DNA of 64,000 nt from Candidatus Woesearchaeota archaeon (GCA_964447685.1 CAYUTI010000002.1:13966-77965), one strand, 5' to 3'. Shown: positions 22,823 to 37,171, counted from the first letter of the stretch. Notes: generated from the sequence alone by a model not told the origin. Numbers and translations are program-made.

Positions 22823-24175
22823 CTATCTCCTATTTGCTTTTAAATATTTTTCATAAATTATTAAATTATCTTTTACGTCTTTATTTATAAGATTATAAAT
22901 ATGAGTTAATGATCCAACTTCATCCATAGAATCTATTATGGCACTTATTTTACCATGTTCCATCATACACATACTTGGTATTGGTGTAAAAATATCACCC
23001 ATAGTTTCATACTGACTTCCTAAACAACCACCTCCGCATAAATATTTAATCCCGCAATCTTGACAGTATGGGAAATTTTTTGTATCAGTAGTATAAATTG
23101 CATATAGAAGTTCAGTGTTGAGGGGATCTATACTAACTATTTGATCATACATTTCAACAAATTTAAAACTGTTAAATTGAGGATAACTAAGCCTATGGCA
23201 TGGGTTAACTGTTAAATCACTTAATCTTATTTGTATATCAGATTGAATACTACATCCTATTCCACGTCCAATAGATGAAAAACAAGAAAATATATTTATA
23301 GGATTTTTAGCTGCCCATCTTGCATAACCAATTTCATCTAAACCTGTTTTTTTCTTTGTCCATTTTACAAAGAAATTAATGAATTTTTGAAAATGTTTAA
23401 CATGATCAATAGTCCATCCATTATTTCTAACTTCTAATAAATAAATATTATCCCAAGGAAGACCATATTTATCAAACATTTCTTGGAACCATAACCAGTT
23501 ATCAATCCATTTATCAATATTATCATAATATACCATTGGATGAAAACCGCAGCCGATATCTTTAGAAAATTTGAAAATAGCATCATAGTCTCTAACATGA
23601 CCGCCTTTTTGAAACGGCCTATTTTCATCACAAAATTTTCCATCAATGCTTGCACTTAAACCTATTCTAAACCTATGCTCTAATGCTTTATTTATTAATC
23701 TGATAACTCTTTGTTTCTTTTCTTCATTTGTACAGAAATTCATATTAGTAGGAATTGAAATACGTCTATAACGAACATCGTGTTTAATAAACCATTCAAC
23801 TAATATCTCTAATACCTCAAATCCAACTTCTGAAGAAAAAATTTCACCTGAGAATAAATCAAAATTTGGAAACATGTTATATTTAGCAAACCATTCCAAA
23901 AGAAGTTTTAAATTCTTAATAACATTTCTTTTTCTATAAATAGATGTAGGATATAATCCAAGTTCTCCATGAGGTCCAATATTACTAAATCTTGAATAGT
24001 AACAGTATTTACATTTTAAATCACAAGATGGTGATATTTGAAGTTCAACACTACTGGCATTATGTCCTTGCATTAATTGTTCATGTTTACCCCAACCACT
24101 AAATACTTTAAAGAATGTTCTGTTTAAAAAACGATGTAACAAATGTGTTCGTTCTTCTTTATATAAATCTATCAT
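22823..24175 (-). CDS. radical SAM enzyme with C-terminal SPASM domain (450 aa)
   Basis: CDLKCKYC (CX3CX2C) near the N-terminus. C-terminal CQDCGIKYLCGGGC (Cx2Cx5Cx3C) plus further Cys typical of SPASM auxiliary clusters. Confidence 0.85.
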   Translation of the reverse strand: MIDLYKEERTHLLHRFLNRTFFKVFSGWGKHEQLMQGHNASSVELQISPSCDLKCKYCYYSRFSNIGPHGELGLYPTSIYRKRNVIKNLKLLLEWFAKYNMFPNFDLFSGEIFSSEVGFEVLEILVEWFIKHDVRYRRISIPTNMNFCTNEEKKQRVIRLINKALEHRFRIGLSASIDGKFCDENRPFQKGGHVRDYDAIFKFSKDIGCGFHPMVYYDNIDKWIDNWLWFQEMFDKYGLPWDNIYLLEVRNNGWTIDHVKHFQKFINFFVKWTKKKTGLDEIGYARWAAKNPINIFSCFSSIGRGIGCSIQSDIQIRLSDLTVNPCHRLSYPQFNSFKFVEMYDQIVSIDPLNTELLYAIYTTDTKNFPYCQDCGIKYLCGGGCLGSQYETMGDIFTPIPSMCMMEHGKISAIIDSMDEVGSLTHIYNLINKDVKDNLIIYEKYLKANRR

Positions 24176-24185
24176 TCTTATCTCC

Positions 24186-25571
24186 CTATCGTAACATTGT
24201 TTCTCGTATCAAACAATTTCTAAGCAACTTTTCAAAAAAACCATTACCGAAAAGTTTAAATAAAGAAGAGTGTTGAATAAAAATACTTCCACCTGTTGAG
24301 ATATTTTCAATTGGACAAGAAATACATCCTAAGATAAAATAATTTAATAACCTAGCCATTTCTTCGTTTTTATATATGCTAGATAATTGTTCTGCTTGTG
24401 CCATTAATCTTATAGTAGTAATACCATAACTTTCTTTAAATTTAGTAAAATCATTATAACCTCTCATAAGCATGAGAAGTCTATCTATATCGAGTTGATT
24501 ATTACTATCAGCACAATAATTTTTTGCTAAATTATTTATAGTAGCCTCGTCCGTTTTTATTAAATCCCCCAAACACTTCTTACTAGTTTCTACATAGTCT
24601 TTATTGGTTATGTAAAAAACTCTATGACACGGAACTACATTATGATTTTCATTAACTGAATATGTACCATCACCGCTACTACAACTAAACATTCTATGTT
24701 TAGTAGACCATTCTTTTATAATAGGTAATCTATTTGTAAGACGATGAAAATAAGCTGAATTAGGTCTTATATTATTAAATAAAAAACCGCTTAATCTTAA
24801 CTGAAAATCATAAAGTTTTGACATTGCAAAACCATCTTCTTGAGTAAAGTCAGTTGGAAGAACTATTGTCGGATCACATGAATAGGATATATTTATTTTA
24901 TTATTAACATTTGTTTCCTTGCATTTAGTGAAAAATTCATCAAAAAATCTATAATAACTTTCAATAACTGAAAAATTATAACCCATCTTCTTTATATCTT
25001 CCATAGAGGCAGTTGGTTTAAAATGCATTATAAAAGTAAAAACAGTTCCGTTTTTATTATTTACAGAATTTAAAAGTCTTATTACTTCAAGACAATTTTT
25101 AATTATTTTTTCAGTAGAACCTTCACCTCTATTCTTATCTGTTATCCATTTAGGGCCATCTATACTAACTTGTAAATCAAGCTCTATTTGTCTATCTGTA
25201 GCAGGAAAATTTTCAACAAATTTAGGTATAATGTCACTTCCAACCATATAATTAGATGAAAAACTAATTTTATTAAAATTTGGAAATAATTTTAACGCCT
25301 CTTCATAAAATTCAGGAATATGATCTAAAAGAGTTAGTGTTGGTTCAGTTCCCCAATGAGAAAAAATTGTTAAATTTTTACCAAACAACTCATAAATTTT
25401 TTTAAGAGTTGATCCATCTTTAATACCCTGTTTTATTTTCTTATGAAAATCCATAAGAAAAGTATTATCTTTAGGTATATAACAATATTTACATTTTAAA
25501 TTGCACCAACCAGCACTAAACATTTCAGATGCTTGAGGAGGTGTATTCTTACTAATACTTAAAGTTGACAT
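24186..25571 (-). CDS. radical SAM enzyme with SPASM/twitch-like C-terminal Cys motifs (461 aa)
   Basis: CNLKCKYC CX3CX2C motif; C-terminal Cys residues (CSSGDG...PCHRV; GCISCP). Confidence 0.85.
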   Translation of the reverse strand: MSTLSISKNTPPQASEMFSAGWCNLKCKYCYIPKDNTFLMDFHKKIKQGIKDGSTLKKIYELFGKNLTIFSHWGTEPTLTLLDHIPEFYEEALKLFPNFNKISFSSNYMVGSDIIPKFVENFPATDRQIELDLQVSIDGPKWITDKNRGEGSTEKIIKNCLEVIRLLNSVNNKNGTVFTFIMHFKPTASMEDIKKMGYNFSVIESYYRFFDEFFTKCKETNVNNKINISYSCDPTIVLPTDFTQEDGFAMSKLYDFQLRLSGFLFNNIRPNSAYFHRLTNRLPIIKEWSTKHRMFSCSSGDGTYSVNENHNVVPCHRVFYITNKDYVETSKKCLGDLIKTDEATINNLAKNYCADSNNQLDIDRLLMLMRGYNDFTKFKESYGITTIRLMAQAEQLSSIYKNEEMARLLNYFILGCISCPIENISTGGSIFIQHSSLFKLFGNGFFEKLLRNCLIRETMLR

Positions 25572-25596
25572 AGTATAATTCCTTATCTACTACTTT

Positions 25597-25971
25597 CTAC
25601 TTACCATCTGGTTTACATTTTCTACATTTACCTATTATATAATCGTCATATTCTAAGTTTATATTAAAATTTACTTCACTTATAAATAATTCACCACAAT
25701 CACACTCACCATAAAGATAGTATTTATTACCATCTGTGAATAGTCCTCTATTGCTATCATATTTTATATTTTCAATAAGCTCCCAACACGGAGAAAGTCT
25801 GGTATTAAATTTTATAGCATCAGGATTCTCTCTATTTATACATGTAGGAGTATCACTATTACAAAAAGTATAACAACCGCTGGAATCGTATGTTGACACT
25901 CTATTGAAATCAGACTCATTAATATCTATTTCTTTTCTGTCTACTTCTTTACTATTCCATTTAAAAGCCAT
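25597..25971 (-). CDS. Cys-rich MAFKW-family protein P3 (124 aa, 9 Cys)
   Basis: N-terminus MAFKWNSKE. Flanks the rSAM pair on the side opposite P1 and P2. Confidence 0.55.
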   Translation of the reverse strand: MAFKWNSKEVDRKEIDINESDFNRVSTYDSSGCYTFCNSDTPTCINRENPDAIKFNTRLSPCWELIENIKYDSNRGLFTDGNKYYLYGECDCGELFISEVNFNINLEYDDYIIGKCRKCKPDGK

Positions 25972-26066: not shown

Positions 26067-27173
26067 TTAACCTTTAACTTTAACCCAATGTCTACCGTTT
26101 ACTTTTATCTGTTTTTTAACTGTTCCAAACGATTCATCGAGTTCAGGTTTCTTATAAATAGCGACAATACGTTCAGGATATTTCTGAGCAAGATTTCTAC
26201 TCATTAAAATTAAATTTGCGTTATCATCATTCGTTAATATATCACCACTTTTATATGTATAACCTACAACGGGATTAACATAAGCAAGTACCCATCCAGC
26301 TACTGCTATAGGAAGAGTATTACCTGGAACATTACTTCCTAAACCGTGACCGAATGTATCACTTGCAATTCCGATTATAGATTTTTGACAATGTTCAGTA
26401 CAAAGCTTAGCTCCATATTCAGTATCGTAATAACATTTTCCTGCTATTAAATCTTCACCATCTGCTAATTTTTGGAAGTCAGCAACGTCGTTCCATACTG
26501 CTGCCCAAACTTTATAGGCTATAAATTGTTGATCTGGACTGTTATCATCTTCACTGTTAAGCATAAAATCAGGCCCTTCTCCAGTTGAAATAACTCCTAA
26601 ACTATCATCTATATAACAACGTCTGAAAGTTGGAACACCTGCACCTGGAGGACCTCCAAGACCTGTTGGGTTTATTAATTCATCAGTAGGACCTCCTCCA
26701 CCACCACTTCCATAAACAGTAGGATCAAGATGGTAAAGAACTCCCCAAGATCTTATAACTCCAGTACTGCCTCCAGTAACTCTTAACTTTATTTGCGTAC
26801 CAGTATTAGTAAATTCGTGAATTTGATTGTTAACAACAGTTTCCCAATTAATTCCATCGGCTGAAGCTTCAATAATTGTTACTCCAGAATCATCTATATC
26901 AACACTTACCATACATTGATCAATTACATCAATATAAAGTGGATCAATCAAATTTATACTTTCTATAACTTGCCCTGGTGTAAAATCAAAACTTCCAAAA
27001 CTATTTTCAGTATCATGAATCATTGTGGTGTTACCAACATTTATTTTTAACGTATCTCTAAAACTATCCCACGTTAAACTTAAATAAATAGAACCATCTA
27101 ATAAATCCTGATACGAATCAAATTCAGTATCACCGCCACCTGAACCGGATATCCTTAACTGAGAAAGTCTCAT
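26067..27173 (-). CDS. fibre/receptor-binding candidate with Gly-rich linker (GSGGGGGPT...GGPPGAG), 368 aa
   Basis: Composition and position among the fibre genes. Confidence 0.5.
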   Translation of the reverse strand: MRLSQLRISGSGGGDTEFDSYQDLLDGSIYLSLTWDSFRDTLKINVGNTTMIHDTENSFGSFDFTPGQVIESINLIDPLYIDVIDQCMVSVDIDDSGVTIIEASADGINWETVVNNQIHEFTNTGTQIKLRVTGGSTGVIRSWGVLYHLDPTVYGSGGGGGPTDELINPTGLGGPPGAGVPTFRRCYIDDSLGVISTGEGPDFMLNSEDDNSPDQQFIAYKVWAAVWNDVADFQKLADGEDLIAGKCYYDTEYGAKLCTEHCQKSIIGIASDTFGHGLGSNVPGNTLPIAVAGWVLAYVNPVVGYTYKSGDILTNDDNANLILMSRNLAQKYPERIVAIYKKPELDESFGTVKKQIKVNGRHWVKVKG

Positions 27174-27188
27174 TAGAATCCTCCAAAA

Positions 27189-27710
27189 TTATATACCTTT
27201 TATAACTATTCTGCCTGCAATACTTGTTGATAGATTACTACTCCATCTAACAGTTACAGTATCAGCATCTGTCAATGTTAATAAATACGGTTCTTTTCGT
27301 ACAGCTCCAACTCCGTTGCCCTCATAACAATCAATAAGTAAATTAAAACTACCTATATTATGTATAGCTGTCCAACTTACAGAATTTCCATAACTAGCAA
27401 CATATTTATGATTAGATAAGTTATCTCCAATAGATTCTGCTCTTCTTGCAATACTAACCGCAATTTCAGCCTCACTATCTACAACAGCACTATAACTTTC
27501 AATTAAATTTGCGATTGAATTATCTGTTTCTGCTTGAGACTCATTATGTAATGCAATTGATTTTGCTTCCGAAGCGCTTATAAAAGCAGCATCTGCTTGT
27601 TGACTCAATGATTCTGCTCGTTGAGCTATGCTGTGACCAACTGTAATGTCTCCCGGCTGTACACGCTTAGTATTACCATTGTAAAAAGCTAGAGGTGTTA
27701 CAATAGCCAT
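27189..27710 (-). CDS. fibre-related protein sharing its N-terminal domain with the 642-aa fibre (MAIVTPLAFYNGNTKRVQPGD)
   Basis: N-terminal approx. 40 aa homologous to 28167-30095; also shares the approx. 80-bp DNA repeat. Confidence 0.55.
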   Translation of the reverse strand: MAIVTPLAFYNGNTKRVQPGDITVGHSIAQRAESLSQQADAAFISASEAKSIALHNESQAETDNSIANLIESYSAVVDSEAEIAVSIARRAESIGDNLSNHKYVASYGNSVSWTAIHNIGSFNLLIDCYEGNGVGAVRKEPYLLTLTDADTVTVRWSSNLSTSIAGRIVIKGI

Positions 27711-27812
27711 TGCATTTTTTCCTTATAAAAAAATTTGAAAATCAGGCCAGACTCAAAATTATAAAAATGATATCTGACCTGACTATTAACTATATCTTCT
27801 ATAAATTATTCA

Positions 27813-28091
27813 TTAATATATATCTGATAATGGAGCAGGTCTAGTTGGACTTGCACCACCTACTACTTTATATTTCTTTTGTCTGTCATTACCAACTCCA
27901 TTAGGTGTTGCACTAACTAACCATAGATCATGATTCATAAGTTCATCCATAATTACTTTTCTACCAACACCATTGATATTTTTATGTTTAATTCTAAATT
28001 CAACACTATTAGGTGATTGGTCGTCAGTAATTATAACTTCTGATTTACCAAGACCTTGAAGAAAGTCTCTAAATGCTGTAGTATTATCCAT
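27813..28091 (-). CDS. hypothetical protein, 92 aa
   Basis: ORF track. Confidence 0.4.
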   Translation of the reverse strand: MDNTTAFRDFLQGLGKSEVIITDDQSPNSVEFRIKHKNINGVGRKVIMDELMNHDLWLVSATPNGVGNDRQKKYKVVGGASPTRPAPLSDIY

Positions 28092-28123
28092 AATAAATTT
28101 TCTCCTTTAAAATTAATAAAATC

Positions 28124-28145
28124 AGGGAGAGGAAAACCTCTCCCT
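28124..28145 (-). terminator. rho-independent terminator (agggagagg-aaaa-cctctccct) downstream of the 642-aa fibre gene
   Basis: 9-bp GC-rich stem with tetraloop, followed on the - strand by gattttattaatttt. Confidence 0.55.
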
Positions 28146-28166
28146 TATGTTATAACTTATTACAGA

Positions 28167-30095
28167 TTATAAAGTTACAGTTCGGTCTGGATCAAAGTTG
28201 ATATCAACATTACCACCAGCAGCAGCATTTTTAGCAGATCCTATTTTCTGAGAAACATGTCCCTGAGTAGTAGGAGCATTATCAGTGATTTTACCAGCTT
28301 CAATTGTAGATATGAATAGCTGCTCACCTGCACCAATGTTAGCATTACTATCATGTAGCACATCAGTAATAAGACCATCACCTGCACGAACAGTAACAGT
28401 TGTATCACCATCATGAATAATTACACCAAATGCTGGCATTGTTGCCTCTGCGTTAGCTTTAGCAAGACCAACAGTATTAGCAATAGTTGTTTGATAAACA
28501 ACCATACCTGTTCTATCAGCCGTAGAAGCTGCCATTGTATAAATCTCACCTTCAGGAAGTACAGTACCTGCAAGAGATTCAGCACGTTGAGCAATTGACT
28601 CTGACCTATCAGCAGTACTATCCCCAACAGTTGCAATACTCTGGCTTAATCTTGCAATGCTAATTGTAACCTCTGCCTCACTATCTACTATAGTTGCATA
28701 ACTAAGTGCTAGGTCAGCAATACTATTATCAAGTGCTCCCTGTGATTCTGCTCTACGAGCAATACTGATTCCAAGTTCAGCTTCGCTATCAACTATAGTA
28801 GCATAGCTGTTTGCTCTTACTGCAATTGATTTTGCTATAACACCAAGAGAATCAGCTTCACTAGCTGCATCCTCACCAAGTCTGGCAAGAGATTGACCTC
28901 GTTCACCTATTGATGTAGCTTCACTTGCTCTATCCTCACCTATTCTTGCGATACTAACTGCGATTTCAGCTTCGCTGTCTACTACCGCTGCATAGGATTC
29001 AATTATATTTGCAATGGAATTATCTACGGCTGCCTGAGATTCATTTGCAGTCGCCATTGAACGAGCTTCGCTAACTGCTTCACTAGCATTATCTGCATAA
29101 AGGTCAGCTTCACTTCTTGCTTCAGATGCTTCATCTTCTGCTACTCTTGCAATACTAATTGCATCATCTGCTTCTGATTCTGCTAGAAGTGCAATACTTC
29201 TACCTCGTTGACCTATAGAAGCAGCCTCAGAAATATCTGAGGTCTCAACAGCTACCCTAGCAAGAGATGCTGCACGTTCTGCTATAGAAGATGCTTCAGA
29301 TGCCCTATTTTCTGCAATTTCTGCAATACTGTCAGCTACAAATGCAAGACTAGCTGCTTCACTTAGGTCAGCAGTTCTGGCAAGTGAAAGTGCAAGATGC
29401 CCCATTGATTCAGCAATATCAGAAATACTATTATCAAGTGTTCCTTGTGATTCTGCTCTACGAGCAATGCTTATTCCAAGTTCAGCTTCACTATCAACTA
29501 TTGTTGCATAAGATTCAGCCAATACAGCGATTGAACGAGCTTCACTTGATTTTTCAAGTCTGGCAAGAGATTGACCTCGTTCACCTATTGATGTAGCTTC
29601 ACTTGCTCTACCGATTGCAAGATCAGCAAGACTGTTATCAAGTACTCCCTGTGATTCTGCTTTACGAGCAATTGAAATTGCAAGTTCAGCTTCACTATCA
29701 ACTATGGTAGCTAAACTGTTTGCCCTATCAGCAATACTATTGTCAAGTAGTGCCTGAGATGCATTTAATGTAGCAATTGATCTTGCTTCACTTGCTGCAT
29801 CTGTTCCAGCAGTCTCTGCTGTTCGTGCAAGAGATTCTCCTCTTATGCCAATACTAGTTGCCTCCGAAACACGACCATTAGCAAGATCAGCAACACTATC
29901 TGCAACTACTGCAAAACTTTCTGCCCTATCTGCAATACTGTCTCCTACAATTCCATACGATTGACCTAAAACAGCAATACTTCTAGCAAGTGCTGCTTCA
30001 GATTGACCAGGAGTATTATCTCCAGGTTGAACTACTTTAAGATTTCCTTGATACAATGCCAAAGGTGTAACAGTTGCCATAGTAATTTCCTCCAA
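28167..30095 (-). CDS. Ala/Ser-rich repetitive fibre (shaft) protein, 642 aa
   Basis: Many SIA(R)RAES / DSEAELAISIAR repeats. N-domain shared with 27189-27710; C-domain shared with 30233-30640. Confidence 0.7.
   Translation of the reverse strand: MEEITMATVTPLALYQGNLKVVQPGDNTPGQSEAALARSIAVLGQSYGIVGDSIADRAESFAVVADSVADLANGRVSEATSIGIRGESLARTAETAGTDAASEARSIATLNASQALLDNSIADRANSLATIVDSEAELAISIARKAESQGVLDNSLADLAIGRASEATSIGERGQSLARLEKSSEARSIAVLAESYATIVDSEAELGISIARRAESQGTLDNSISDIAESMGHLALSLARTADLSEAASLAFVADSIAEIAENRASEASSIAERAASLARVAVETSDISEAASIGQRGRSIALLAESEADDAISIARVAEDEASEARSEADLYADNASEAVSEARSMATANESQAAVDNSIANIIESYAAVVDSEAEIAVSIARIGEDRASEATSIGERGQSLARLGEDAASEADSLGVIAKSIAVRANSYATIVDSEAELGISIARRAESQGALDNSIADLALSYATIVDSEAEVTISIARLSQSIATVGDSTADRSESIAQRAESLAGTVLPEGEIYTMAASTADRTGMVVYQTTIANTVGLAKANAEATMPAFGVIIHDGDTTVTVRAGDGLITDVLHDSNANIGAGEQLFISTIEAGKITDNAPTTQGHVSQKIGSAKNAAAGGNVDINFDPDRTVTL
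28400..29900. repeat. dispersed/tandem approx. 80-bp near-identical coding repeats (e.g. 28721-28800, 29431-29510, 29631-29710)
   Basis: Direct comparison of these sequence lines; a further copy sits at about 27440 in the neighbouring gene. Confidence 0.7.
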
Positions 30096-30232
30096 TTTGA
30101 ATTAAAAAAATAATTATTACCAACACCAACATCAACAGCTCTGTCTTCTATATTCGTATTTCTGTTATATATCTATCTACTATGGCTTACAAAATATAAT
30201 TATCTACTATTGTTAAAAGATTTTCTGAATGG

Positions 30233-30640
30233 CTAAAGTTCAATTACTTCACTAATGAGTAAATTGATCTCTATTTTTCCATTTGGTTTTACTTTAACCG
30301 CTGATCCAAGTTTCAAGCATACACCAGAACTTGGGCTTATATTAGTAACTCTTCCAGATTCGAGTGAACTTAAAAATACTGAATTTCCAAAACTGAAACT
30401 AATTCCAGTTTCTGGAACAACATCAACATCACTTCCTGAAAAGTCAACTGAAACACTATTTCCATAATCTCGTTTAATGACTCCGATAGCGTTTGCTGTT
30501 AAAACATCTCCAGCATTTGCTAAACCTACTCTATCGGCATGAGAAGATACTAAATAAACAACAAGACCTCCTCTTCCACTTCCAGACGCTATACCATAAA
30601 TATGAGTTGAATCTTCAATTACTGATCTGATTCGAGGCAT
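30233..30640 (-). CDS. stand-alone paralogue of the fibre C-terminal (tip) domain, 135 aa
   Basis: GGLVVYLVSSHADRVGLANAGDVLTANAIGVI aligns with GMVVYQTTIANTVGLAKANAEATMPAFGVI at the C-terminus of the 642-aa fibre. Confidence 0.5.
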   Translation of the reverse strand: MPRIRSVIEDSTHIYGIASGSGRGGLVVYLVSSHADRVGLANAGDVLTANAIGVIKRDYGNSVSVDFSGSDVDVVPETGISFSFGNSVFLSSLESGRVTNISPSSGVCLKLGSAVKVKPNGKIEINLLISEVIEL

Positions 30641-30721: not shown

Positions 30722-31606
30722 TTATCTAAATTTGGATACATGATTATTTAAAAGCTGATATCGTTTCTGTTTTAGTAAGTCAATATTTCTTTGTTTTCTA
30801 AGTTTGAATTTTTCTAAAGACTCATCATTCATTTGCTGCGTTGAAACACCTCCATGATGAATAACATAAGTCTTTAAATCTAAAGCTAACTTATAACCTG
30901 GATCAGGATGGCGATAATGCTGAAGTCTAAAACAAAAGTCGTCGTCATCTCCTCCCATATCAAAGTCTTCATCAATTAATCCTACTTTATTAAAAACTTC
31001 TATAGGAAAACATACAGCAAAGAAAGCTAACATTCCTGACATAACCATGTAATTCTTATTAAGCTCTGCAAGCTTGTTATTGATTAAATTAAGGTTCAAG
31101 TTATCAAACCGAGGCACTGTTTTAAATCGTTCAGCTACGTTGTTAATATACTGCCAGTCTCTTTCACAGCTATTTAGTGGCCCAACAGCTCCTATTTGTT
31201 CATCACTTTGAAGCACTCCAACCATATTATCGATCCAGTTGTTACCAACTTCGATATCATCATTTAAAAAGAACACATAATCATAATCACGTTCTAAAAT
31301 AAGCTGTAAACAATGATTAAGGCCACCAGCCCAAAACACGTTTTTCTCACTCGGAATAAGAACAGTGTTATAAAGTTTATTACTTTTAGCGTAAAGTTGA
31401 CCATGTTCATCAGGTTTGTTATCAAATAGAAATAGATGCCAATCAGCATGATTTTTTGATCTGTATATACTTAATAAAGTTTTATATAAGTGGCCACTAT
31501 TATAAGTAACACAAATTAGTGCTACTTTAACATTCTTAAGTTTTTCAATCCTAATTTCTTCATACATAATAGAGTTATCTTTACATGATAAACCTATAGA
31601 TGTCAT
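30722..31606 (-). CDS. family-2 glycosyltransferase (GT-A fold, DxD motif FLNDDIEV)
   Basis: ICVTYNSGHLY...LFDNKPDE...FLNDD pattern typical of GT2. Confidence 0.7.
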   Translation of the reverse strand: MTSIGLSCKDNSIMYEEIRIEKLKNVKVALICVTYNSGHLYKTLLSIYRSKNHADWHLFLFDNKPDEHGQLYAKSNKLYNTVLIPSEKNVFWAGGLNHCLQLILERDYDYVFFLNDDIEVGNNWIDNMVGVLQSDEQIGAVGPLNSCERDWQYINNVAERFKTVPRFDNLNLNLINNKLAELNKNYMVMSGMLAFFAVCFPIEVFNKVGLIDEDFDMGGDDDDFCFRLQHYRHPDPGYKLALDLKTYVIHHGGVSTQQMNDESLEKFKLRKQRNIDLLKQKRYQLLNNHVSKFR

Positions 31607-31667
31607 AATAATACCTCCATATGGTATTTTCTTATTAATAAACTGTTAAGTTTTTATTTTTAACTTA

Positions 31668-32636
31668 TTATAGAGAATTGTATAAGCTGATGAATTTCTG
31701 TACTGCTTTTCTCATACAGAAGGTCTCTCTGGCATAATCAACGTTAAGTTGGATCTGTTTATCTGGATTTGTTTTCAAATCATCCCATGCTTGAGAAACA
31801 GCGTTAACAATTGAAGGTGTATGCCTGTTACACACATATTTAGTATGTTCATCTGTATAGGCAACAACGCTGCATCCAAAAGCCATGGCTTCCATCGAAT
31901 CTCTTGAAAATATTCCGTTATAATTACTATTAAAGCTTATATCAGCTCCAGCAAGAAACATTCTCAAATCGCTAAACTTGTGTTCATAGTGTTCAAGGCT
32001 ATTGCTTATTTGATTAGATTTTAAAACTAAATTGTCCCAACTTGAAGCAGAAGCTACGCTTATTCCGAAAACGTTAAGTCTTGCAGTAGGAATCTTTTTT
32101 CTTATATCAGGAATAGCCCAAAATAGAGGAGCAGGATTCTTATTAATCCTTATATTTGATGTTGAAATTATAGCTGGTCTAAATCGATATTGATATGGTT
32201 GGATCGCTGTTATATCATATTTATCCATATCAATTGCATCTGGAATATATACAACGTTATCGCCATAATTTTTCATGATTTGATAATCGTATTTTGTAAT
32301 AGCAACTATCTTTTTAAATGTTTTCATGAATTCAATATGCATATCAAACTTTTTAGATTTACCACTGCTTTCGATATCATGAAGAACTAAGATCTCAGAT
32401 GTTCCATGAAGGATAGCTAAGTTTTTCTTTTTAGAAAGAAGATGCATTAGCTTTGCAGGAATAGATCTATGAAGTACCCATACATCACATTCATGAGCAG
32501 CGCTCCATGGTTTAGCTACTACTTCCCTGTCACGATACCTATTAGGATCTGGATTTTCTATATCACTAATAAATAAATATGGTTCAAGTCCTGCTTTTTT
32601 TTCCTGCCTACACATGTCTATGCAATATTCGTGCAA
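31668..32636 (-). CDS. GT-B fold (GT4-like) glycosyltransferase, 322 aa
   Basis: FSRDSMEAMAFGCSVVAY matches the E-x7-E / EAMAxGxPV motif. The first codon is TTG; the true start may be the internal ATG at about 32615. Confidence 0.6.
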   Translation of the reverse strand: MHEYCIDMCRQEKKAGLEPYLFISDIENPDPNRYRDREVVAKPWSAAHECDVWVLHRSIPAKLMHLLSKKKNLAILHGTSEILVLHDIESSGKSKKFDMHIEFMKTFKKIVAITKYDYQIMKNYGDNVVYIPDAIDMDKYDITAIQPYQYRFRPAIISTSNIRINKNPAPLFWAIPDIRKKIPTARLNVFGISVASASSWDNLVLKSNQISNSLEHYEHKFSDLRMFLAGADISFNSNYNGIFSRDSMEAMAFGCSVVAYTDEHTKYVCNRHTPSIVNAVSQAWDDLKTNPDKQIQLNVDYARETFCMRKAVQKFISLYNSL

Positions 32637-32664
32637 ACCGCTGAGATTGGGTCGATTTTGTTAC

Positions 32665-32672
32665 TATTTATA
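32665..32672 (-). promoter_or_regulatory. T4 late-promoter-like TATAAATA upstream of the GT gene
   Basis: Exact octamer on the - strand, about 28 nt upstream of the start. Confidence 0.3.
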
Positions 32673-33050
32673 TATAAATAGGGTAAGTGATTTCTCCTTA
32701 CCTCTTTATGTTTCCATAAAGTCCAGACTATATCATCAACCTTAAAAATGTTTTAAAGGCTGTCGGGCGCTACCTATAGGAATCACTCCCTATAAGTGAA
32801 AAACTCTTCATAGTTTTAAAATTAAACCTTAGAAGTTTTTTCTAAGTCGTTGAACCTTTCCACTAATTTATTAGTAGACTTGGCTGCTGATTACCCAATT
32901 CTTTAACTTTTCAAACATTCACGCTCATCGTTTCCAACCACGTTGTAGTGTAAAGACTCTCAGGGCTTTCCAGCAATTCACCCGATTTGCAAACCAATAT
33001 TACTATTGATTGGGGTTATATATTAGCCCATAAACTAAAATGTGCAATTT

Positions 33051-33365
33051 TCATATTATCTCCTTTATACTTTCTACTTTATTAAAATAAGATAAATCAC
33101 TACTATCTAAAAACCACCATTCACAATATTTTCTATTTTGATTAGTCATAGTATGACAACTTCTACAAAGAGTAATTAAATTATTTTTATTATTATTGTT
33201 CTTAATGTAATCAATATGATGTACGGAATTTCCACAATCACCGCAAATCTGACAAATGTAATTATCTCTTTCCCTAATATAAGTTTTAATTAAATAAAAC
33301 TCTTTAGGATATTTTTCAAAAGAAGTACCTCCATTCCAATTAGGGTTTCCTTCTAAAGAATACAT
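33051..33365 (-). CDS. HNH homing endonuclease (104 aa)
   Basis: CQICGDCGNSVHHIDYIKNNNNKNNLITLCRSCH is a complete HNH motif. Confidence 0.75.
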   Translation of the reverse strand: MYSLEGNPNWNGGTSFEKYPKEFYLIKTYIRERDNYICQICGDCGNSVHHIDYIKNNNNKNNLITLCRSCHTMTNQNRKYCEWWFLDSSDLSYFNKVESIKEII

Positions 33366-33502
33366 ATTAGAAAAATAAAGTTTTTTACACTTATTACTAC
33401 ATGTCTTAACAGTATTCTTTTGATTTGGAAAAACTTCAATTCCAGAATTACAAACTATACAACCCTTTTAAAGATTGAGATAATTTATTTCTAAATTCGG
33501 GG

Positions 33503-33601
33503 TTACTTGCTTTCTCTCTGTTTTGATCTTGAATCAGTTACTTTGTTACCACATTTACAAAAATACCTAATCTTACCATCAATTATTTTCTTTATTGCCA
33601 T
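33503..33601 (-). pseudogene. 32-aa ORF (MAIKKIIDGKIRYFCKCGNKV...) plus a downstream in-frame Cys-rich stretch; possible decayed N-terminal zinc-finger portion of the HNH gene
   Basis: Frames checked by hand: they cannot be joined by a single shift, which suggests decay rather than programmed frameshifting. Confidence 0.25.
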
Positions 33602-33696
33602 AGTAATCTCCGCTAAAGATTAAATATAAATAAAGAAGTTAGACTGAATATTAGCGGTATTCAATCAAGACCGGCCAAAGTCCTGTCCTCCTATAT

Positions 33697-34194
33697 TTAT
33701 TTTATGCGTTCCCATCCATTTATTCTATTCTTATTATCGATATCATAACCGCTGATACCTTTGTATTCCCAAAGTTGACCGTTAGCAAGTTTGACAATCT
33801 CACCATAACCAGCACTATGTTTTGGTTTAACTTTGCTAATATCGTTGTGGCTAACTTTATGGCTGTAATTAGTCGGAACAATTTTTCCAGACTTACCGGG
33901 TTTGGAAGCGATACCACCACCAAAAATAGTATTAATATCACGCATCCTGATTTTCTTTTTAGTGAGTGGAATCTCTTTTCCATCAATAACGACAATTATC
34001 TTAGCACCGAAATCTGAAATTTCATCTGCTTTAAAACTGATCTTATCAGATAATCCATTATCGATAGCATCTGTTAGTTTGTTAACAGCAAGAGCGTACC
34101 ATGCAGGGCCATCCATATACCTGTTATTCAAACTCCTGTTAACGGTTTTCATATCATGCTTGATAACATTAGATAGAATCTTAACATATTTCAT
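33697..34194 (-). CDS. MKYV-family protein, 165 aa
   Basis: N-terminus MKYVKILSN. Confidence 0.5.
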   Translation of the reverse strand: MKYVKILSNVIKHDMKTVNRSLNNRYMDGPAWYALAVNKLTDAIDNGLSDKISFKADEISDFGAKIIVVIDGKEIPLTKKKIRMRDINTIFGGGIASKPGKSGKIVPTNYSHKVSHNDISKVKPKHSAGYGEIVKLANGQLWEYKGISGYDIDNKNRINGWERIK

Positions 34195-34204
34195 TATTAC
34201 CTCA

Positions 34205-34621
34205 TTAAGCTGAATATTTTAACCATGCCAAAGCTTCATTCTTGCTATCGAAAAATGTTATTACGTTTATCTTTCCTTGTGAAACAACAATATACCTATT
34301 TTTAATTGGTTTAATATTGCCACCCCAAATATCAAATTTTTCAACAGCGGTATCCTGCTTACTATAAACAGGAACTTCAAAAACTGATAAATTTCCCTTC
34401 TTTTTTAAAGGAGTATGATTATTAGCATAATTAACTAAACCCTTTGTCAAAGAGTTATCTTGATTTTTGTCACCTTGTTTATCAGTTATATAAGTTGATC
34501 TAACAGGTACTGCAATACCACTTCCTGGACTGTAACTAATCCAGAAAGTAATATTTTGGAAAAATATTTTATCTCCTTTATCCCCTGTAGCAGAATCAAC
34601 TTTAACTTTTACGTATTTCAT
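34205..34621 (-). CDS. MKYV-family protein, 138 aa
   Basis: N-terminus MKYVKVKVD. Confidence 0.5.
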   Translation of the reverse strand: MKYVKVKVDSATGDKGDKIFFQNITFWISYSPGSGIAVPVRSTYITDKQGDKNQDNSLTKGLVNYANNHTPLKKKGNLSVFEVPVYSKQDTAVEKFDIWGGNIKPIKNRYIVVSQGKINVITFFDSKNEALAWLKYSA

Positions 34622-34649
34622 TGTAACCTCACAATTTGAATTTTAAGTT

Positions 34650-34832
34650 TTAAAGTGCTGCAATACTTTCCCATTCCAAAGCCCAATCCTGATTTTCATC
34701 TCGTGTAATACCATAAATCTTGTGTTCACCAGTACTTGGAATTGATCTAATTGCATTACTGCTAACTTCTCTTGCAATTGATTCCACCTCTGGAAAAGCA
34801 ATAGTGTTATCTGAAAAATATCGAAAACTCAT
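34650..34832 (-). CDS. hypothetical protein, 60 aa
   Basis: ORF track. Confidence 0.35.
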   Translation of the reverse strand: MSFRYFSDNTIAFPEVESIAREVSSNAIRSIPSTGEHKIYGITRDENQDWALEWESIAAL

Positions 34833-34861
34833 AATGTTCTCCTTGATTTATTATTTAGTAA

Positions 34862-37171
34862 CTACAATATTTGCATATTGTTTATGTTAAGATCTGTAAT
34901 AGTCTTAATAGAATTAATCATTTCATTCTTTGTGCTGTCATTTTCTGAAACAACAAAAGATAAACTATTAAAATAAATTTCTAACATAAACTTTTTATTC
35001 TGTAAGATAATAAATTGATTATAAGTACCATCATTTCCATAGCTGATTGCATAGTCATTTAATAAAGGTTTAAAAAGATCTTTAAATTCATTCTCAGTAA
35101 ACTCTTTATTATGATAGGCTGAATCCCAAAGATTTCCATCTGGTTTAGCAAGAGGTGTTGTTAATACTGCAATTTTTGGATTCATATCTTTAATTTTGAG
35201 AACAGCATTTTCAGGATTTGTAAAATGCTCAATAACCTGACTCAATAACAGACAATCTAAATTATGGTTATTTGGCAAATCAAAGAAGCTTTGAATTGTC
35301 ATTTCTATTTTTGTATCAGGTGGAAGAGGTAATGATTTTACAACTTCAGTAATCATTTTTTCAGCAAGAGTAACTGCAAATTTGTTTGTTTCAATTATAT
35401 TTACATTGAAACCTTTTCTTGCCAGCTTAAAAGCAATAGCTCCGTCACCACCACCGATATCTGCAATATTTTTGAAATCATGTATCTCTCTAAGCTTTTC
35501 AAATATGTTAATTAAACTATCAACATAGTTATTGTATATAGCATCTTTACTGTTCCAGTGATAAGGCCCTAATCGCTCATATTTATCAAATGTTTTACTG
35601 GTTTTAACTTCGCTTAAATTACTTGAACCAACAGCAATATTATTCTCAGCAAGATAAGTTCTCAGAGATAATGCCAAGTTTGCAACCGAAGCTTTAATAT
35701 CACCGATTTCGTTTTTAATAAAAGCTTGACCTTGTTCTTTAGTAAGAGTTCCTGTTTTAACTGCGTTATCAGCTTTATTTTTATTTACGATTTCATTAAG
35801 TATTGATATAGTTTCTTCTTTAGTAAGTTCAGTCTTAACTTCAGAAGGTTTAACTACTTCGTTCTTAACAATCTCACCAGCAATATAAGATTTATTGTTT
35901 TTAATAGCTTCATTTATTTTATCATCAGAAGGTGACGCTGATGTTTTAACTTCTATACTATTTACTTTACTTTGTACAGGAATAGAAGTAGTGCTTGCAA
36001 CAGGCTCTGGTTTAGGAACAGGTATTTGAATCTGATTTCTTTGTTTATTTATAGATGCTTCAATTTCAACAGCCTTAACATTATCAGTTTCAAGTTTATT
36101 TTTAATGATACTATTAAAACTAACAATTGATTTTATAACAGCCTCATTATCAATGGAATTAGATTGAATTTTTTCTAATTGATTATTCATAAAATCTATC
36201 CATCGATCAGTGTAATTGTCCCAGTTAAGTTTTGAAACTTCAGTACGCCCCATTTTTCCAAAAGCAAGTCTTATCTTATCATTATTTTTATATAGTAAAA
36301 TTCTTTTAATAAGAAGATCACTGCTCAGATCAGGACGTTTCATAACTAATGCTGTCTTGTGATGAAACGCAAAATCTTGAGTTCCTATATCTGTACAAAT
36401 TACAGGAAGCTCACAAGCCATAGCTTCAGCAGCGCAATTTTGCCAACCTGCTAATGTCTCACAACTAATATAACAATTATAGCTACTATAAATATTTTTC
36501 ATATCCTCTTGAGGAATATTAATATGGCTTGCTACATCGTTGTTTAGATTGATTAAAGGTTCTGTTGCAATATATCCAAATTTGATATCTTTATAATCTT
36601 TAGAAAGTTTGTTACAGGCATCGATTATAATATTGAGGTTTTTCCAAGGCCTATTACGTCCTTGAAATAATACTTTAAACTTATTAAACTCTCTTGCAGT
36701 ATTAACCTTTCTAAACATATCAAGATTAATAGCACCTGGAATAGTATGCCAGTTTAAAGGTATTTCAACATCTTTTAGATGTTCAGGATTTTGAGCTTCC
36801 CAACCAGAGCCATTGCCTACAACAACTATTTTTGGATCATAGATAACCTTTCCATATTGACCGATTATATAATTACTCCAATATGGAAAAATAATGTTAA
36901 TAATTTTTAATGGTGCCTTGCTAAGATAAATATTTTTACTTAGGCCAGCATCACCACAAATACAAACATCAGCATCATAGTCTTTTAAATTGATAAGTGG
37001 CTGTATTGATTTTTGTGGAAAATTTATTTCTCTTACGAAATCTGTTACTAATGGGTTTTGTGCGTGAATTACAACTTCACAGTCTTTATCAATAAGACGT
37101 TTCCCAAATTCTAAATATCTGCGTACTCCACCATATTTTTTAAAGTGTGGTAGTAAAATTGATATTTTCAT
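34862..37171 (-). CDS. bifunctional GT-B glycosyltransferase (N-terminal) / class-I SAM-dependent methyltransferase (C-terminal), 769 aa
   Basis: AAEAMACELPVICTDIG is a GT4-type motif. The C-terminal IADIGGGDGAIAFKLA is methyltransferase motif I. ATG and aggag RBS confirmed. Confidence 0.75.
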   Translation of the reverse strand: MKISILLPHFKKYGGVRRYLEFGKRLIDKDCEVVIHAQNPLVTDFVREINFPQKSIQPLINLKDYDADVCICGDAGLSKNIYLSKAPLKIINIIFPYWSNYIIGQYGKVIYDPKIVVVGNGSGWEAQNPEHLKDVEIPLNWHTIPGAINLDMFRKVNTAREFNKFKVLFQGRNRPWKNLNIIIDACNKLSKDYKDIKFGYIATEPLINLNNDVASHINIPQEDMKNIYSSYNCYISCETLAGWQNCAAEAMACELPVICTDIGTQDFAFHHKTALVMKRPDLSSDLLIKRILLYKNNDKIRLAFGKMGRTEVSKLNWDNYTDRWIDFMNNQLEKIQSNSIDNEAVIKSIVSFNSIIKNKLETDNVKAVEIEASINKQRNQIQIPVPKPEPVASTTSIPVQSKVNSIEVKTSASPSDDKINEAIKNNKSYIAGEIVKNEVVKPSEVKTELTKEETISILNEIVNKNKADNAVKTGTLTKEQGQAFIKNEIGDIKASVANLALSLRTYLAENNIAVGSSNLSEVKTSKTFDKYERLGPYHWNSKDAIYNNYVDSLINIFEKLREIHDFKNIADIGGGDGAIAFKLARKGFNVNIIETNKFAVTLAEKMITEVVKSLPLPPDTKIEMTIQSFFDLPNNHNLDCLLLSQVIEHFTNPENAVLKIKDMNPKIAVLTTPLAKPDGNLWDSAYHNKEFTENEFKDLFKPLLNDYAISYGNDGTYNQFIILQNKKFMLEIYFNSLSFVVSENDSTKNEMINSIKTITDLNINNMQIL

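What the first reader, a model, noticed from the sequence alone, without database searches (positions are those of the whole stretch)
27189..30640. Modular fibre locus: swapped N- and C-terminal domains and approx. 80-bp recombinogenic repeats
The 173-aa gene (27189-27710) and the 642-aa Ala/Ser-repeat fibre (28167-30095) share an N-terminal domain (MAIVTPLAFYNGNTKRVQPGD versus MATVTPLALYQGNLKVVQPGD). The 135-aa gene (30233-30640) is a stand-alone copy of the C-terminal tip domain of the 642-aa fibre. The shaft of the 642-aa gene is built from near-identical approx. 80-bp DNA repeats with at least three copies, plus one more in the 173-aa gene. This is the signature of cassette-like fibre shuffling, with possible host-range or length variation through recombination between repeats.
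Basis: seen in the sequence. Interest (0 to 1): 0.55.

Follow-up and report, generated by a model that had tools for sequence, protein, structure and literature searches.

The report
Modular coiled-coil phage fibre gene pair
This is a pair of virus fibre genes from an uncultured large phage that share an attachment end, and the long fibre's helical shaft gains and loses whole repeat units between related phages; it is an undescribed sequence family, but the kind of thing is familiar.

Summary
The sequence observations hold, with corrections. All genes are on the minus strand. The long fibre starts at the ATG at 30080 (637 aa, not 642). It shares 18 of its first 26 residues with the 173-aa protein. 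The 135-aa protein is a diverged paralogue of the fibre's C-terminal domain (34% identity, E 8e-14), not a copy. The shaft repeats are real but mostly 65-84% identical; only one 56-nt pair is exact.

The shaft consists of about 69 heptads, S-[IL]-A-x-[LVI]-A-[EDN], an alanine-zipper-type coiled coil. The tip and the 135-aa protein are modelled as an all-beta fold. That fold matches domains of tail-fibre-like phage proteins best, and beta-tulip capsid cement proteins more weakly.

Related genomes support length variation: the indels are 105, 105, 21 and 9 nt, and the first three equal whole heptad multiples. Repeat units are also more alike within a genome than between genomes, which indicates concerted evolution.

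Active cassette switching is not supported. There is no DNA homology between the tip and the 135-aa gene, no inverted repeats and no DGR-type template. The 135-aa gene is under strong purifying selection (dN/dS 0.07) and keeps its position in five lineages.

The locus follows the baseplate genes of a myovirus with a T4-like tail sheath, so tail fibres are the likeliest reading. A GT2 glycosyltransferase travels with the fibre across lineages.

The parts
28167..30080 (-). Long fibre gene, 637 aa (true ATG at 30080; the 642-aa TTG start at 30095 lies inside the RBS)
   Evidence: ORF; GGAGG before the ATG; orthologue of 711 aa at 69% identity in L001
30003..30080 (-). N-terminal module of the long fibre (residues 1-26, MATVTPLALYQGNLKVVQPGDNTPGQ), the presumed virion-attachment motif
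   Evidence: 18/26 identical to the 173-aa protein; family consensus MAxKKPLxxYxGxxKxLQxGDxTPG over 15 proteins; modelled as a beta-hairpin in the low-confidence model of the 173-aa protein
28557..30002 (-). Shaft, residues 27-508: about 69 heptads S-[IL]-A-x-[LVIR]-A-[EDN]; 21.8% Ala, 15.6% Ser
   Evidence: Lag-7 periodicity and heptad table; PDB sequence match to the designed coiled coil 8qae; the L015 homologue passes Pfam Alanine_zipper
28170..28556 (-). C-terminal all-beta tip domain of the long fibre (residues 509-637)
   Evidence: Homologous to the 135-aa protein and to the tips of P0001-P0010; aligns with the Phage_cement_2 domain of P0013
29613..29717 (-). Canonical 105-nt (35-aa, 5-heptad) repeat unit 1 (residues 122-156)
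   Evidence: (D1/D3)
29409..29513 (-). Canonical 105-nt repeat unit 2 (residues 190-224)
28704..28808 (-). Canonical 105-nt repeat unit 3 (residues 425-459)
29555..29610 (-). Exact 56-nt repeat, copy B (encodes RASEATSIGERGQSLARL)
   Evidence: D5, 100%; the short-read contig L002 ends inside it at 29581
28877..28932 (-). Exact 56-nt repeat, copy A
   Evidence: the short-read contig L010 starts inside it at 28906; its orthologues in L001 are only 74-77% identical
28124..28145 (-). Intrinsic-terminator-like hairpin (9-bp stem with 6 GC pairs, then a T-rich tail) 22 nt downstream of the fibre stop codon
   Evidence: inverted repeat I3
30233..30640 (-). 135-aa stand-alone paralogue of the tip domain, modelled as an all-beta, beta-tulip/cement-like fold
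   Evidence: AF2 pLDDT 86.6; Foldseek hits; dN/dS 0.07; same position in L001, L008, L015 and L017
27189..27710 (-). 173-aa short fibre: N-module (27633-27710), about 70-residue helical heptad stretch (27420-27632), unrelated 76-residue beta C-terminal domain (27192-27419)
   Evidence: orthologues P0021 (79% identity) and P0022 (163 aa, with a 10-residue deletion in the helix)
27813..28091 (-). 92-aa small conserved protein of unknown function that travels with the fibre genes
   Evidence: Orthologues in L001 (88 aa), L009 (77 aa) and L015 (75 aa); a 70-aa relative next to the GT2 gene in L004 (37% identity over 46 aa, E 2e-7); ORFs of the same size and position in L012 and L013 (homology not tested)
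30722..31606 (-). GT2-family glycosyltransferase that co-occurs with the fibre across lineages
   Evidence: Pfam Glycos_transf_2; 43-45% identical GT2 immediately upstream of fibre homologues in L004, L012 and L013; also present in L001, L015 and L017
26067..27173 (-). 368-aa protein of unknown function downstream of the short fibre, conserved in L001; context only
   Evidence: dN/dS 0.22; no family or PDB match; not related to the tip profile

Best explanation
The locus encodes two fibre proteins of an uncultured myovirus. The genome is about 175 kb, has about 30% G+C and carries a T4-like tail sheath.

Each protein begins with the same 26-residue N-terminal motif. I infer that this motif plugs both fibres into the same kind of socket on the virion, most probably the baseplate periphery, because the genes follow the baseplate wedge genes.

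The long fibre (637 aa) continues as about 69 alanine/serine heptads. These would form a parallel coiled-coil shaft roughly 70 nm long if the helix is continuous (482 residues at about 0.148 nm each). It ends in a distal all-beta knob.

The short fibre (173 aa) has only about 10 heptads and a different C-terminal beta domain, so the particle would carry two fibre types on one kind of anchor.

The shaft DNA is made of in-frame 21-nt and 105-nt units that recombine with each other by unequal crossing-over and gene conversion. This adds or removes whole heptad blocks without breaking the coiled-coil register and keeps repeats within a genome alike. The result is fibre-length variation between lineages.

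The 135-aa gene is an old, separately expressed paralogue of the knob, not a recombination cassette.

Shown here: the homologies, the heptad periodicity, the whole-unit indels, the concerted evolution, the conserved gene order, and purifying selection on the genes.

Inferred: trimeric state, attachment site, receptor binding by the knob, and presence in the virion.
For: Position in the genome. In transcription order the window reads: sheath (62405-63979), gp5/V spike (53228-54220), baseplate wedge (42747-45482), P2 gpI-like (39359-40564), glycosyltransferases, then this locus. The sheath is about 50% identical to those of T4-superfamily phages.

Shaft.
- Lag-7 identity is 0.255 against 0.111 +/- 0.014 in shuffles.
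- The heptad has S at g, I/L at a, L/V/I at d and A at b and e.
- The only PDB sequence match is a designed coiled coil (8qae, E 6e-7).
- The L015 homologue passes the Pfam Alanine_zipper cut-off (27.9 against 23.1 bits).

Knob.
- The AF2 model has pLDDT 86.6.
- The best structural matches (TM 0.65-0.77, E about 1e-6) are domains of phage proteins annotated as tail fibre-like, collagen-repeat, intramolecular-chaperone or Mtd-N proteins.
- In the 808-aa L015 fibre a second, internal copy of the domain sits between coiled-coil segments (hhalign E 1.4e-5).

Neighbours in other loci. These include CBM_4_9 and other fibre-like genes in L007 and L015 and a DUF4376 gene in L013.

Recombination.
- Indels are 105, 105, 21 and 9 nt.
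- Within-genome unit identity exceeds between-genome identity.
- Short-read contigs break exactly inside the exact 56-nt repeat.

Real genes. dN/dS is 0.07-0.26 for the four neighbouring genes and the tip domain, and all have strong RBSs.
Against: - No experimental or proteomic evidence places these proteins in the virion.
- Attachment to the baseplate rests on gene order alone.
- All top PDB fold matches for the knob are capsid cement or decoration proteins and the phi29 head-fibre base. Relatives touch Pfam Phage_cement_2. A head location is therefore a serious alternative.
- The heptad has small or hydrophobic residues at five of seven positions (g, a, b, d, e). This fits higher-order or antiparallel helical bundles as well as a simple trimer.
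- The AF2 model of the short fibre is unusable (pLDDT 43.7).
- The indels separate lineages that are only about 70-75% identical in DNA, so nothing shows that length variation is frequent or adaptive.
Confidence: 0.6

Rival explanations
1. Head fibre plus cement protein. The 135-aa protein is a trimeric beta-tulip capsid cement protein. The long protein is the same capsid-binding domain carrying an outward-pointing coiled-coil fibre, like the phi29 gp8.5 head fibre with the domain order reversed.
For: - Foldseek against the PDB returns only capsid decoration or cement proteins (XM1, phiCD508, FCWL1, BB1, Adjutor, Pam3 gp6, TW1, HFTV1, T1, Sf11) and the phi29 gp8.5 base, at probability about 1.0.
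- Relatives P0013, P0030 and P0043 touch Pfam Phage_cement_2.
- The 135-aa size and its disordered N-terminal arm (residues 1-8 below pLDDT 50) fit a cement protein.
- The phi29 head fibre joins a beta-tulip base to a helical fibre (PMC7602432).
Against: - The TM-scores to decoration proteins are only 0.5-0.6, against 0.65-0.77 for tail-fibre-like proteins.
- In Pam3 gp6 the N-terminal loop makes most of the capsid contacts (PMC9942802). In this fibre that end is fused directly to the shaft.
- The L015 fibre carries the domain in mid-shaft.
- The genes sit after the baseplate genes, and no capsid-protein gene was identified beside them.
- The short fibre shares the N-module but not this domain, so the conserved, presumably anchoring, end is the N-terminus.
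- The window proteins themselves give no Pfam PF09956 hit even at E 10.
Confidence: 0.2
2. Neck whiskers or collar. The two proteins are functional analogues of T4 fibritin: trimeric coiled coils attached to the neck by their N-termini, with a beta domain replacing the foldon as the C-terminal trimerisation unit.
For: The phage belongs to the wider T4-like group by its sheath. The long heptad coiled coil with a small N-terminal attachment motif and a C-terminal folding nucleus matches fibritin's layout (my own knowledge of T4 wac). A long form and a short form on one anchor recall whiskers and collar.
Against: There is no sequence relationship to fibritin in PHROGs or Pfam and no foldon. The locus is adjacent to baseplate genes, about 17 kb from the only connector-like gene (9606-10724). 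Neighbours in other loci are tail-fibre-like.
Confidence: 0.12
3. Active cassette switching. The 135-aa gene is a spare tip that is recombined into the fibre gene to change host range.
For: A tip paralogue lies 138 nt upstream of the fibre gene, in the same orientation.
Against: - Only 34% amino-acid identity and no usable DNA homology.
- No inverted repeats, and no template repeat or other copy anywhere in the window.
- It has its own RBS.
- dN/dS is 0.07 and the gene is stably conserved as a separate gene in five lineages.
- The tips of the window, L001, L009 and L015 fibres are all orthologous, so no swap has occurred.
Confidence: 0.03

Closest known systems
Phage tail fibres and receptor-binding proteins with a conserved N-terminal anchor and exchangeable C-terminal domains (for example paired RBPs of dual-fibre phages)
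   Same: A shared N-terminal module on two adjacent genes, a fibrous repeat shaft, different distal domains, genes placed after the baseplate genes, and mosaic evolution across lineages.
   Different: There is no sequence match to any Pfam or PHROG fibre family or to 50,697 GenBank phage records. The anchor is only about 26 residues. The shaft is an Ala/Ser heptad coiled coil rather than a beta-helix, collagen or triple beta-spiral.
T4 fibritin (wac)
   Same: A long segmented parallel coiled coil with a small N-terminal attachment region and a C-terminal folding domain, in a phage with a T4-like sheath.
   Different: No homology; a beta knob of about 130 residues instead of the 27-residue foldon; a different genomic position; a much more regular, alanine-zipper-type heptad.
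phi29 head fibre gp8.5 and beta-tulip cement proteins (lambda gpD, TW1 gp56, Pam3 gp6; Pfam PF09956 Phage_cement_2)
   Same: The predicted fold of the knob and of the 135-aa protein matches these. phi29 also joins this fold to a helical fibre.
   Different: The domain order is reversed (knob C-terminal). TM-scores are only 0.5-0.6. The window proteins miss the Pfam model. The genes were not found next to any identified capsid gene.
Alanine-zipper coiled coils (Braun lipoprotein Lpp, PF11839) and the designed alpha-helical barrel sc-apCC-6-SLLA (8qae)
   Same: Heptads with Ser at g, Leu/Ile at a and d and Ala at e. The L015 homologue passes PF11839.
   Different: These are a short bacterial lipoprotein and a designed protein, not virion fibres. 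The similarity is in the repeat pattern and does not indicate common descent.
Repeat-number variation in phage fibre genes (for example collagen-like repeats in host-range determinants of Streptococcus thermophilus phages; from my own knowledge)
   Same: In-frame repeat units gained and lost by recombination change fibre length while keeping the structural register.
   Different: Here the unit is a 7-residue coiled-coil heptad (21 nt; higher unit 105 nt), not a Gly-X-Y triplet.

Membership tests
Phage tail fibre / receptor-binding protein (general class) | Gene lies in the tail/baseplate morphogenesis module | tested here: met
   Sheath, spike, wedge and gpI-like genes lie upstream on the same strand. 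Homologues sit among fibre-like and CBM genes.
Phage tail fibre / receptor-binding protein (general class) | Elongated repetitive shaft with a globular distal domain | tested here: met
   About 69 heptads; C-terminal beta domain modelled at pLDDT 86.6 via its paralogue.
Phage tail fibre / receptor-binding protein (general class) | Component of the virion tail that binds a host receptor | not testable with these tools
   Needs proteomics, EM and adsorption assays.
Beta-tulip cement/decoration proteins (Pfam PF09956 Phage_cement_2) | Passes the Pfam model's gathering score | tested here: not met
   The 135-aa protein and the fibre tip give no PF09956 hit even at E 10. Relatives: P0013 27.5 bits (passes the cut-off of 24), P0030 22.3 and P0043 23.2 (both below it).
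Beta-tulip cement/decoration proteins (Pfam PF09956 Phage_cement_2) | Decoration-protein fold | tested here: inconclusive
   All top PDB hits are decoration proteins, but E is 3e-3 to 0.1 and TM 0.5-0.6. Matches to tail-fibre-like proteins are better. The model has no helix, whereas the beta-tulip is described as having one (PMC7602432).
Beta-tulip cement/decoration proteins (Pfam PF09956 Phage_cement_2) | Binds the capsid at 3-fold sites | not testable with these tools
   No major capsid protein gene was identified in the window, so gene-order support for capsid binding is lacking. The locus adjoins baseplate genes.
phi29 gp8.5-type head fibre | N-terminal beta-tulip base followed by a C-terminal helical fibre | tested here: not met
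   The order is reversed: N-motif, coiled coil, then C-terminal beta domain.
T4 fibritin | Sequence homology and a C-terminal foldon | tested here: not met
   No PHROG or Pfam hit; the C-terminus is a beta domain of about 130 residues.
Trimeric alanine-zipper coiled coil | Heptad periodicity with hydrophobic a/d positions and Ala-rich flanking positions | tested here: met
   match to 8qae; PF11839 hit in the L015 homologue. The oligomeric state itself was not testable.
Programmed variation systems (DGR, invertible shufflon) | Template repeat matching the variable region, or inverted repeats flanking alternative cassettes | tested here: not met
   No copy of any part of the locus exists elsewhere in the window, and the only inverted match is the terminator hairpin. 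No reverse transcriptase or recombinase appeared among the 48 ORFs scanned (the window has 69 ORFs of at least 100 aa), so that survey is not exhaustive.

The most novel reading that the evidence does not exclude
The fibre is the substrate of the co-inherited GT2 glycosyltransferase. The serine that opens almost every heptad (about 69 per chain) is solvent-exposed at the g position and would be O-glycosylated, giving a glycan-coated coiled-coil fibre.

On this reading, the conserved block of GT2, stand-alone beta protein, long fibre, small 70-92-aa protein and short fibre would be a self-contained 'glyco-fibre' module. The nearby radical SAM/SPASM enzymes might add further modifications.

The evidence is conserved gene neighbourhood only: GT2 at 43-45% identity sits next to fibres that are only about 35% identical. 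Nothing tested here excludes the idea.
Probability: 0.15. Interest if true: 0.7.

Novelty: new variant of a known kind. Interest (0 to 1): 0.4.

Why it matters
- It defines an unannotated fibre family of uncultured large phages. The parts are a 26-residue anchor motif, an Ala/Ser heptad shaft and a beta knob related to capsid cement proteins.
- It gives a clean example of how heptad-phased DNA repeats let a coiled-coil fibre change length by whole structural units.
- The structural link between fibre knobs and cement proteins, and the repeated co-occurrence with a glycosyltransferase, are leads for virion-modification studies.
- Practical point: the repeats break short-read assemblies, so fibre lengths in metagenomic phage genomes of this group should not be trusted without long reads.

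Tried and rejected
- PHROGs and Pfam on all locus proteins: no hits.
- blastn and tblastn against 50,697 GenBank phage records: no match for the locus or the fibre.
- IMG/VR scans with the fibre, the 173-aa protein and an alignment: nothing. One further call failed for lack of conserved columns.
- GTDB genome scans by protein pattern and by an exact 50-mer: nothing.
- The JGI metagenome scan added only one short new locus, L017.
- The full-length fibre search was saturated by repeat words. It missed the fibre's own 69%-identical orthologue, so its count of 16 homologues is a lower bound.
- The AF2 model of the 173-aa protein, from a 3-sequence alignment, was too poor (pLDDT 43.7) to use for a fold search.
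- Profile comparison of the tip with the 368-aa protein, the 173-aa C-terminus, the L004 202-aa protein and the L007 170-aa protein: unrelated.
- PDB sequence searches with the N-motif and tip profiles: nothing.
- PDB sequence search with the GT2: nothing. NCBIfam gives only a weak rhamnosyltransferase-subfamily hit, far below the cut-off.
- DGR, shufflon and cassette mechanisms: considered and rejected.


Full report
OBSERVATION.

All genes of the locus are on the minus strand. The 642-aa ORF starts at a TTG that lies inside a GGAGG ribosome-binding site. The real start is the ATG at 30080, which gives a 637-aa protein beginning MATVTPL.

- The long protein and the 173-aa protein share 18 of their first 26 residues and 52 of 78 nt. 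They also share heptad repeat units; BLASTP gives E 5e-23.
- The 135-aa protein aligns with residues 517-634 of the 642-aa ORF (512-629 of the 637-aa protein) at 34% identity, E 8e-14.
- The shaft DNA is internally repeated well above chance: 219 nt at 76% (E 6e-33), 133 nt at 80% and 95 nt at 84%, with every offset a multiple of three.
- One further copy lies in the 173-aa gene: 106 nt at 77%.
- 'Near-identical 80-bp repeats' overstates it. Only one 56-nt pair is exact (28877-28932 and 29555-29610).

ANATOMY.

The shaft (residues 27-508) is 21.8% Ala and 15.6% Ser. It has a strict seven-residue period: lag-7 identity is 0.255, against 0.111 +/- 0.014 in shuffles.

The heptad is S-[IL]-A-x-[LVIR]-A-[EDN]. 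That places hydrophobic residues at a and d and small residues at g, b and e, which is an alanine-zipper-like coiled-coil pattern. Three results agree with this.
- The only PDB sequence match is a designed coiled coil with Ser, Leu, Leu and Ala at g, a, d and e (8qae).
- A homologue (L015) passes Pfam Alanine_zipper.
- The low-confidence model of the short protein shows a hairpin, then a long helix, then a beta domain.

A higher-order unit of 35 residues (105 nt, SYATIVDSEAELGISIARRAESQGxLDNSIADLAL) occurs three times. A strong terminator-like hairpin follows the fibre gene. All five genes have good Shine-Dalgarno sequences.

THE TIP.

An AlphaFold2 model of the 135-aa protein, built on a 12-sequence alignment of tips and stand-alone copies, is confident (pLDDT 86.6) and all-beta.

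Against the PDB, every leading match is a capsid cement or decoration protein (XM1, phiCD508, Pam3 gp6, TW1, HFTV1, T1 and others) or the base of the phi29 head fibre. These matches are modest, with E from 3e-3 to 0.1 and TM 0.5-0.6.

Against predicted viral structures the matches are better (TM 0.65-0.77, E about 1e-6). They fall inside large proteins annotated as tail fibre-like, collagen-repeat, intramolecular-chaperone or Mtd-N-terminal proteins.

An exhaustive profile search found 3616 proteins with this domain. It is often C-terminal, often multi-copy in very large proteins, and also occurs as stand-alone proteins of 117-140 aa. Some relatives reach or approach Pfam Phage_cement_2, but the window proteins do not.

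CONTEXT.

The window is a structural region of a phage with about 30% G+C. The sheath is about 50% identical to those of T4-superfamily phages.

The transcription order is:
- sheath, gp5/V spike, wedge and P2 gpI-like genes;
- three glycosyltransferases;
- the 135-aa gene, the long fibre, the 92-aa gene, the short fibre and a 368-aa gene;
- a Cys-rich 124-aa ORF and two radical SAM/SPASM proteins;
- later a connector-like gene and a helicase.

RELATED LOCI.

The identical 135-aa and 173-aa proteins occur on a 174,909-bp NCBI contig.

L001 is an orthologous locus with about 70-75% DNA identity and the same gene order. Its fibre is 711 aa. The differences are indels of 105, 105, 21 and 9 nt, and the first three equal whole 5-heptad or 1-heptad units.

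L009, a third lineage, has the same tip but a shorter distal shaft.

L015 (a 209-kb contig) and L017 keep the order GT2, stand-alone beta protein, small ORF, fibre. The L015 fibre is 808 aa with a second, internal copy of the beta domain (hhalign E 1.4e-5). It is followed by a short protein carrying the N-motif and a different C-terminal domain.

More distant loci (L004, L012, L013) have a 70-aa ORF, a GT2 (43-45% identical), a short N-motif protein in L012 and L013, and a long fibre.

A lineage with a different N-terminal domain (L014) also has a long-plus-short pair sharing that domain.

RECOMBINATION.

Canonical 35-aa units are closest to a paralogue in their own genome (78-91%) rather than to any unit in the other genome (68-76%).

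The exact 56-nt pair in the window is only 74-77% identical to its orthologues in L001. This is concerted evolution, or independent duplication after the lineages diverged.

Independent short-read assemblies break in the shaft. Two contigs end exactly inside the two copies of the exact repeat.

The four neighbouring genes and the tip domain are under purifying selection (dN/dS 0.07-0.26). Synonymous sites are close to saturation, so these ratios are approximate.

INTERPRETATION.

The best reading is a long and a short virion fibre that share an N-terminal attachment motif. Both have an alanine-zipper coiled-coil shaft and carry different distal domains. Shaft length drifts by whole heptad blocks through recombination between in-frame repeats.

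Tail (baseplate) attachment is favoured for four reasons:
- gene order;
- fibre-like neighbours in other loci;
- the better structural matches to tail-fibre proteins;
- the mid-shaft copy of the knob in L015.

In Pam3 gp6 the N-terminal loop makes most of the capsid contacts (PMC9942802). Here that end of the domain is fused to the shaft, which argues against canonical capsid binding by the long fibre.

The head-fibre reading stays alive because of the PDB matches and the phi29 precedent (PMC7602432). The 135-aa protein, with its free and disordered N-terminus, could well be a true cement protein.

Cassette switching is rejected. There is no DNA homology, no inverted or template repeats, a conserved and constrained separate gene, and no tip swap among four lineages.

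NOVELTY.

The kind is known: a modular phage fibre with a repeat-length-variable shaft. The sequence family is undescribed, with no Pfam, PHROG or GenBank-phage match. The combination of anchor motif, Ser/Ala heptads, cement-like knob, a stand-alone knob paralogue and a co-inherited GT2 is new.

The most novel reading still open is that the GT2 glycosylates the serine-rich shaft.

CAVEATS.
- Oligomeric state, virion location and function are all inferred.
- The count of family members is a lower bound, because the repeat-rich query saturated the word index.
- The repeat number in the window itself depends on an assembly that short reads cannot resolve.

Noticed in passing
window 22823-25971 (-): Two radical SAM/SPASM proteins (450 and 461 aa) weakly resemble RiPP peptide maturases (PapB, DynA, anSME, SCIFF types; all below the cut-offs). 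A Cys-rich 124-aa ORF lies directly downstream of the fibre locus. The arrangement is conserved in L001. L004 also has a radical SAM gene about 8 kb downstream of its fibre gene. This may indicate post-translational modification of virion proteins.
   Followed up: partly
window 30722-37171 (-); L004, L012, L013, L015, L017: Three glycosyltransferases lie between the baseplate genes and the fibre locus: a GT2, a GT1-like protein, and a 769-aa GT1 plus methyltransferase. A 43-45% identical GT2 accompanies fibre homologues that are only about 35% identical in distant loci.
   Followed up: partly
window 27813-28091 (-); L004 225-437; L015 11177-11404: A small protein of 70-92 aa and unknown function is conserved next to the fibre or GT2 genes in several lineages. 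Its position relative to the fibre differs between clades.
   Followed up: partly
window 28906 and 29581; L002, L003, L008, L009, L010, L017: Every short-read contig that reaches the fibre gene ends within the shaft repeats, two of them exactly inside the exact 56-nt repeat. Fibre lengths in metagenomic assemblies of this group are therefore unreliable.
   Followed up: yes
window 28557-30002 (-): The natural heptad (Ser g, Ile/Leu a, Leu/Val/Ile d, Ala e) follows the pattern of the designed six-helix barrel sc-apCC-6-SLLA (8qae). Small or hydrophobic residues occupy five of seven positions, so a bundle of more than three helices is conceivable.
   Followed up: no
window 28170-28559 vs L001: Synonymous divergence of the fibre tip between the window and L001 (pS 0.45) is lower than in the flanking genes (0.54-0.74). 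This could reflect codon constraint or a more recent exchange of the tip between lineages.
   Followed up: no
L015 8691-11117: An 808-aa fibre homologue carries a second, internal beta domain related to the tip (hhalign probability 80%) between two coiled-coil stretches. Its repeat flavour differs from the window's (SEARSEADLAESEAEVAKSIAL).
   Followed up: partly
L004 5515-8946: The contig carrying fibre homologue P0009 also encodes a histidine-kinase-like protein and two response-regulator-like proteins next to phage-like genes.
   Followed up: no
window 26067-27173 (-): A 368-aa protein with Gly-rich linkers (GSGGGGGP, GLGGPPGAG) lies downstream of the short fibre. It is conserved in L001 (366 aa) and has no family, PDB or tip-profile match. 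It may be another fibre or baseplate component.
   Followed up: partly
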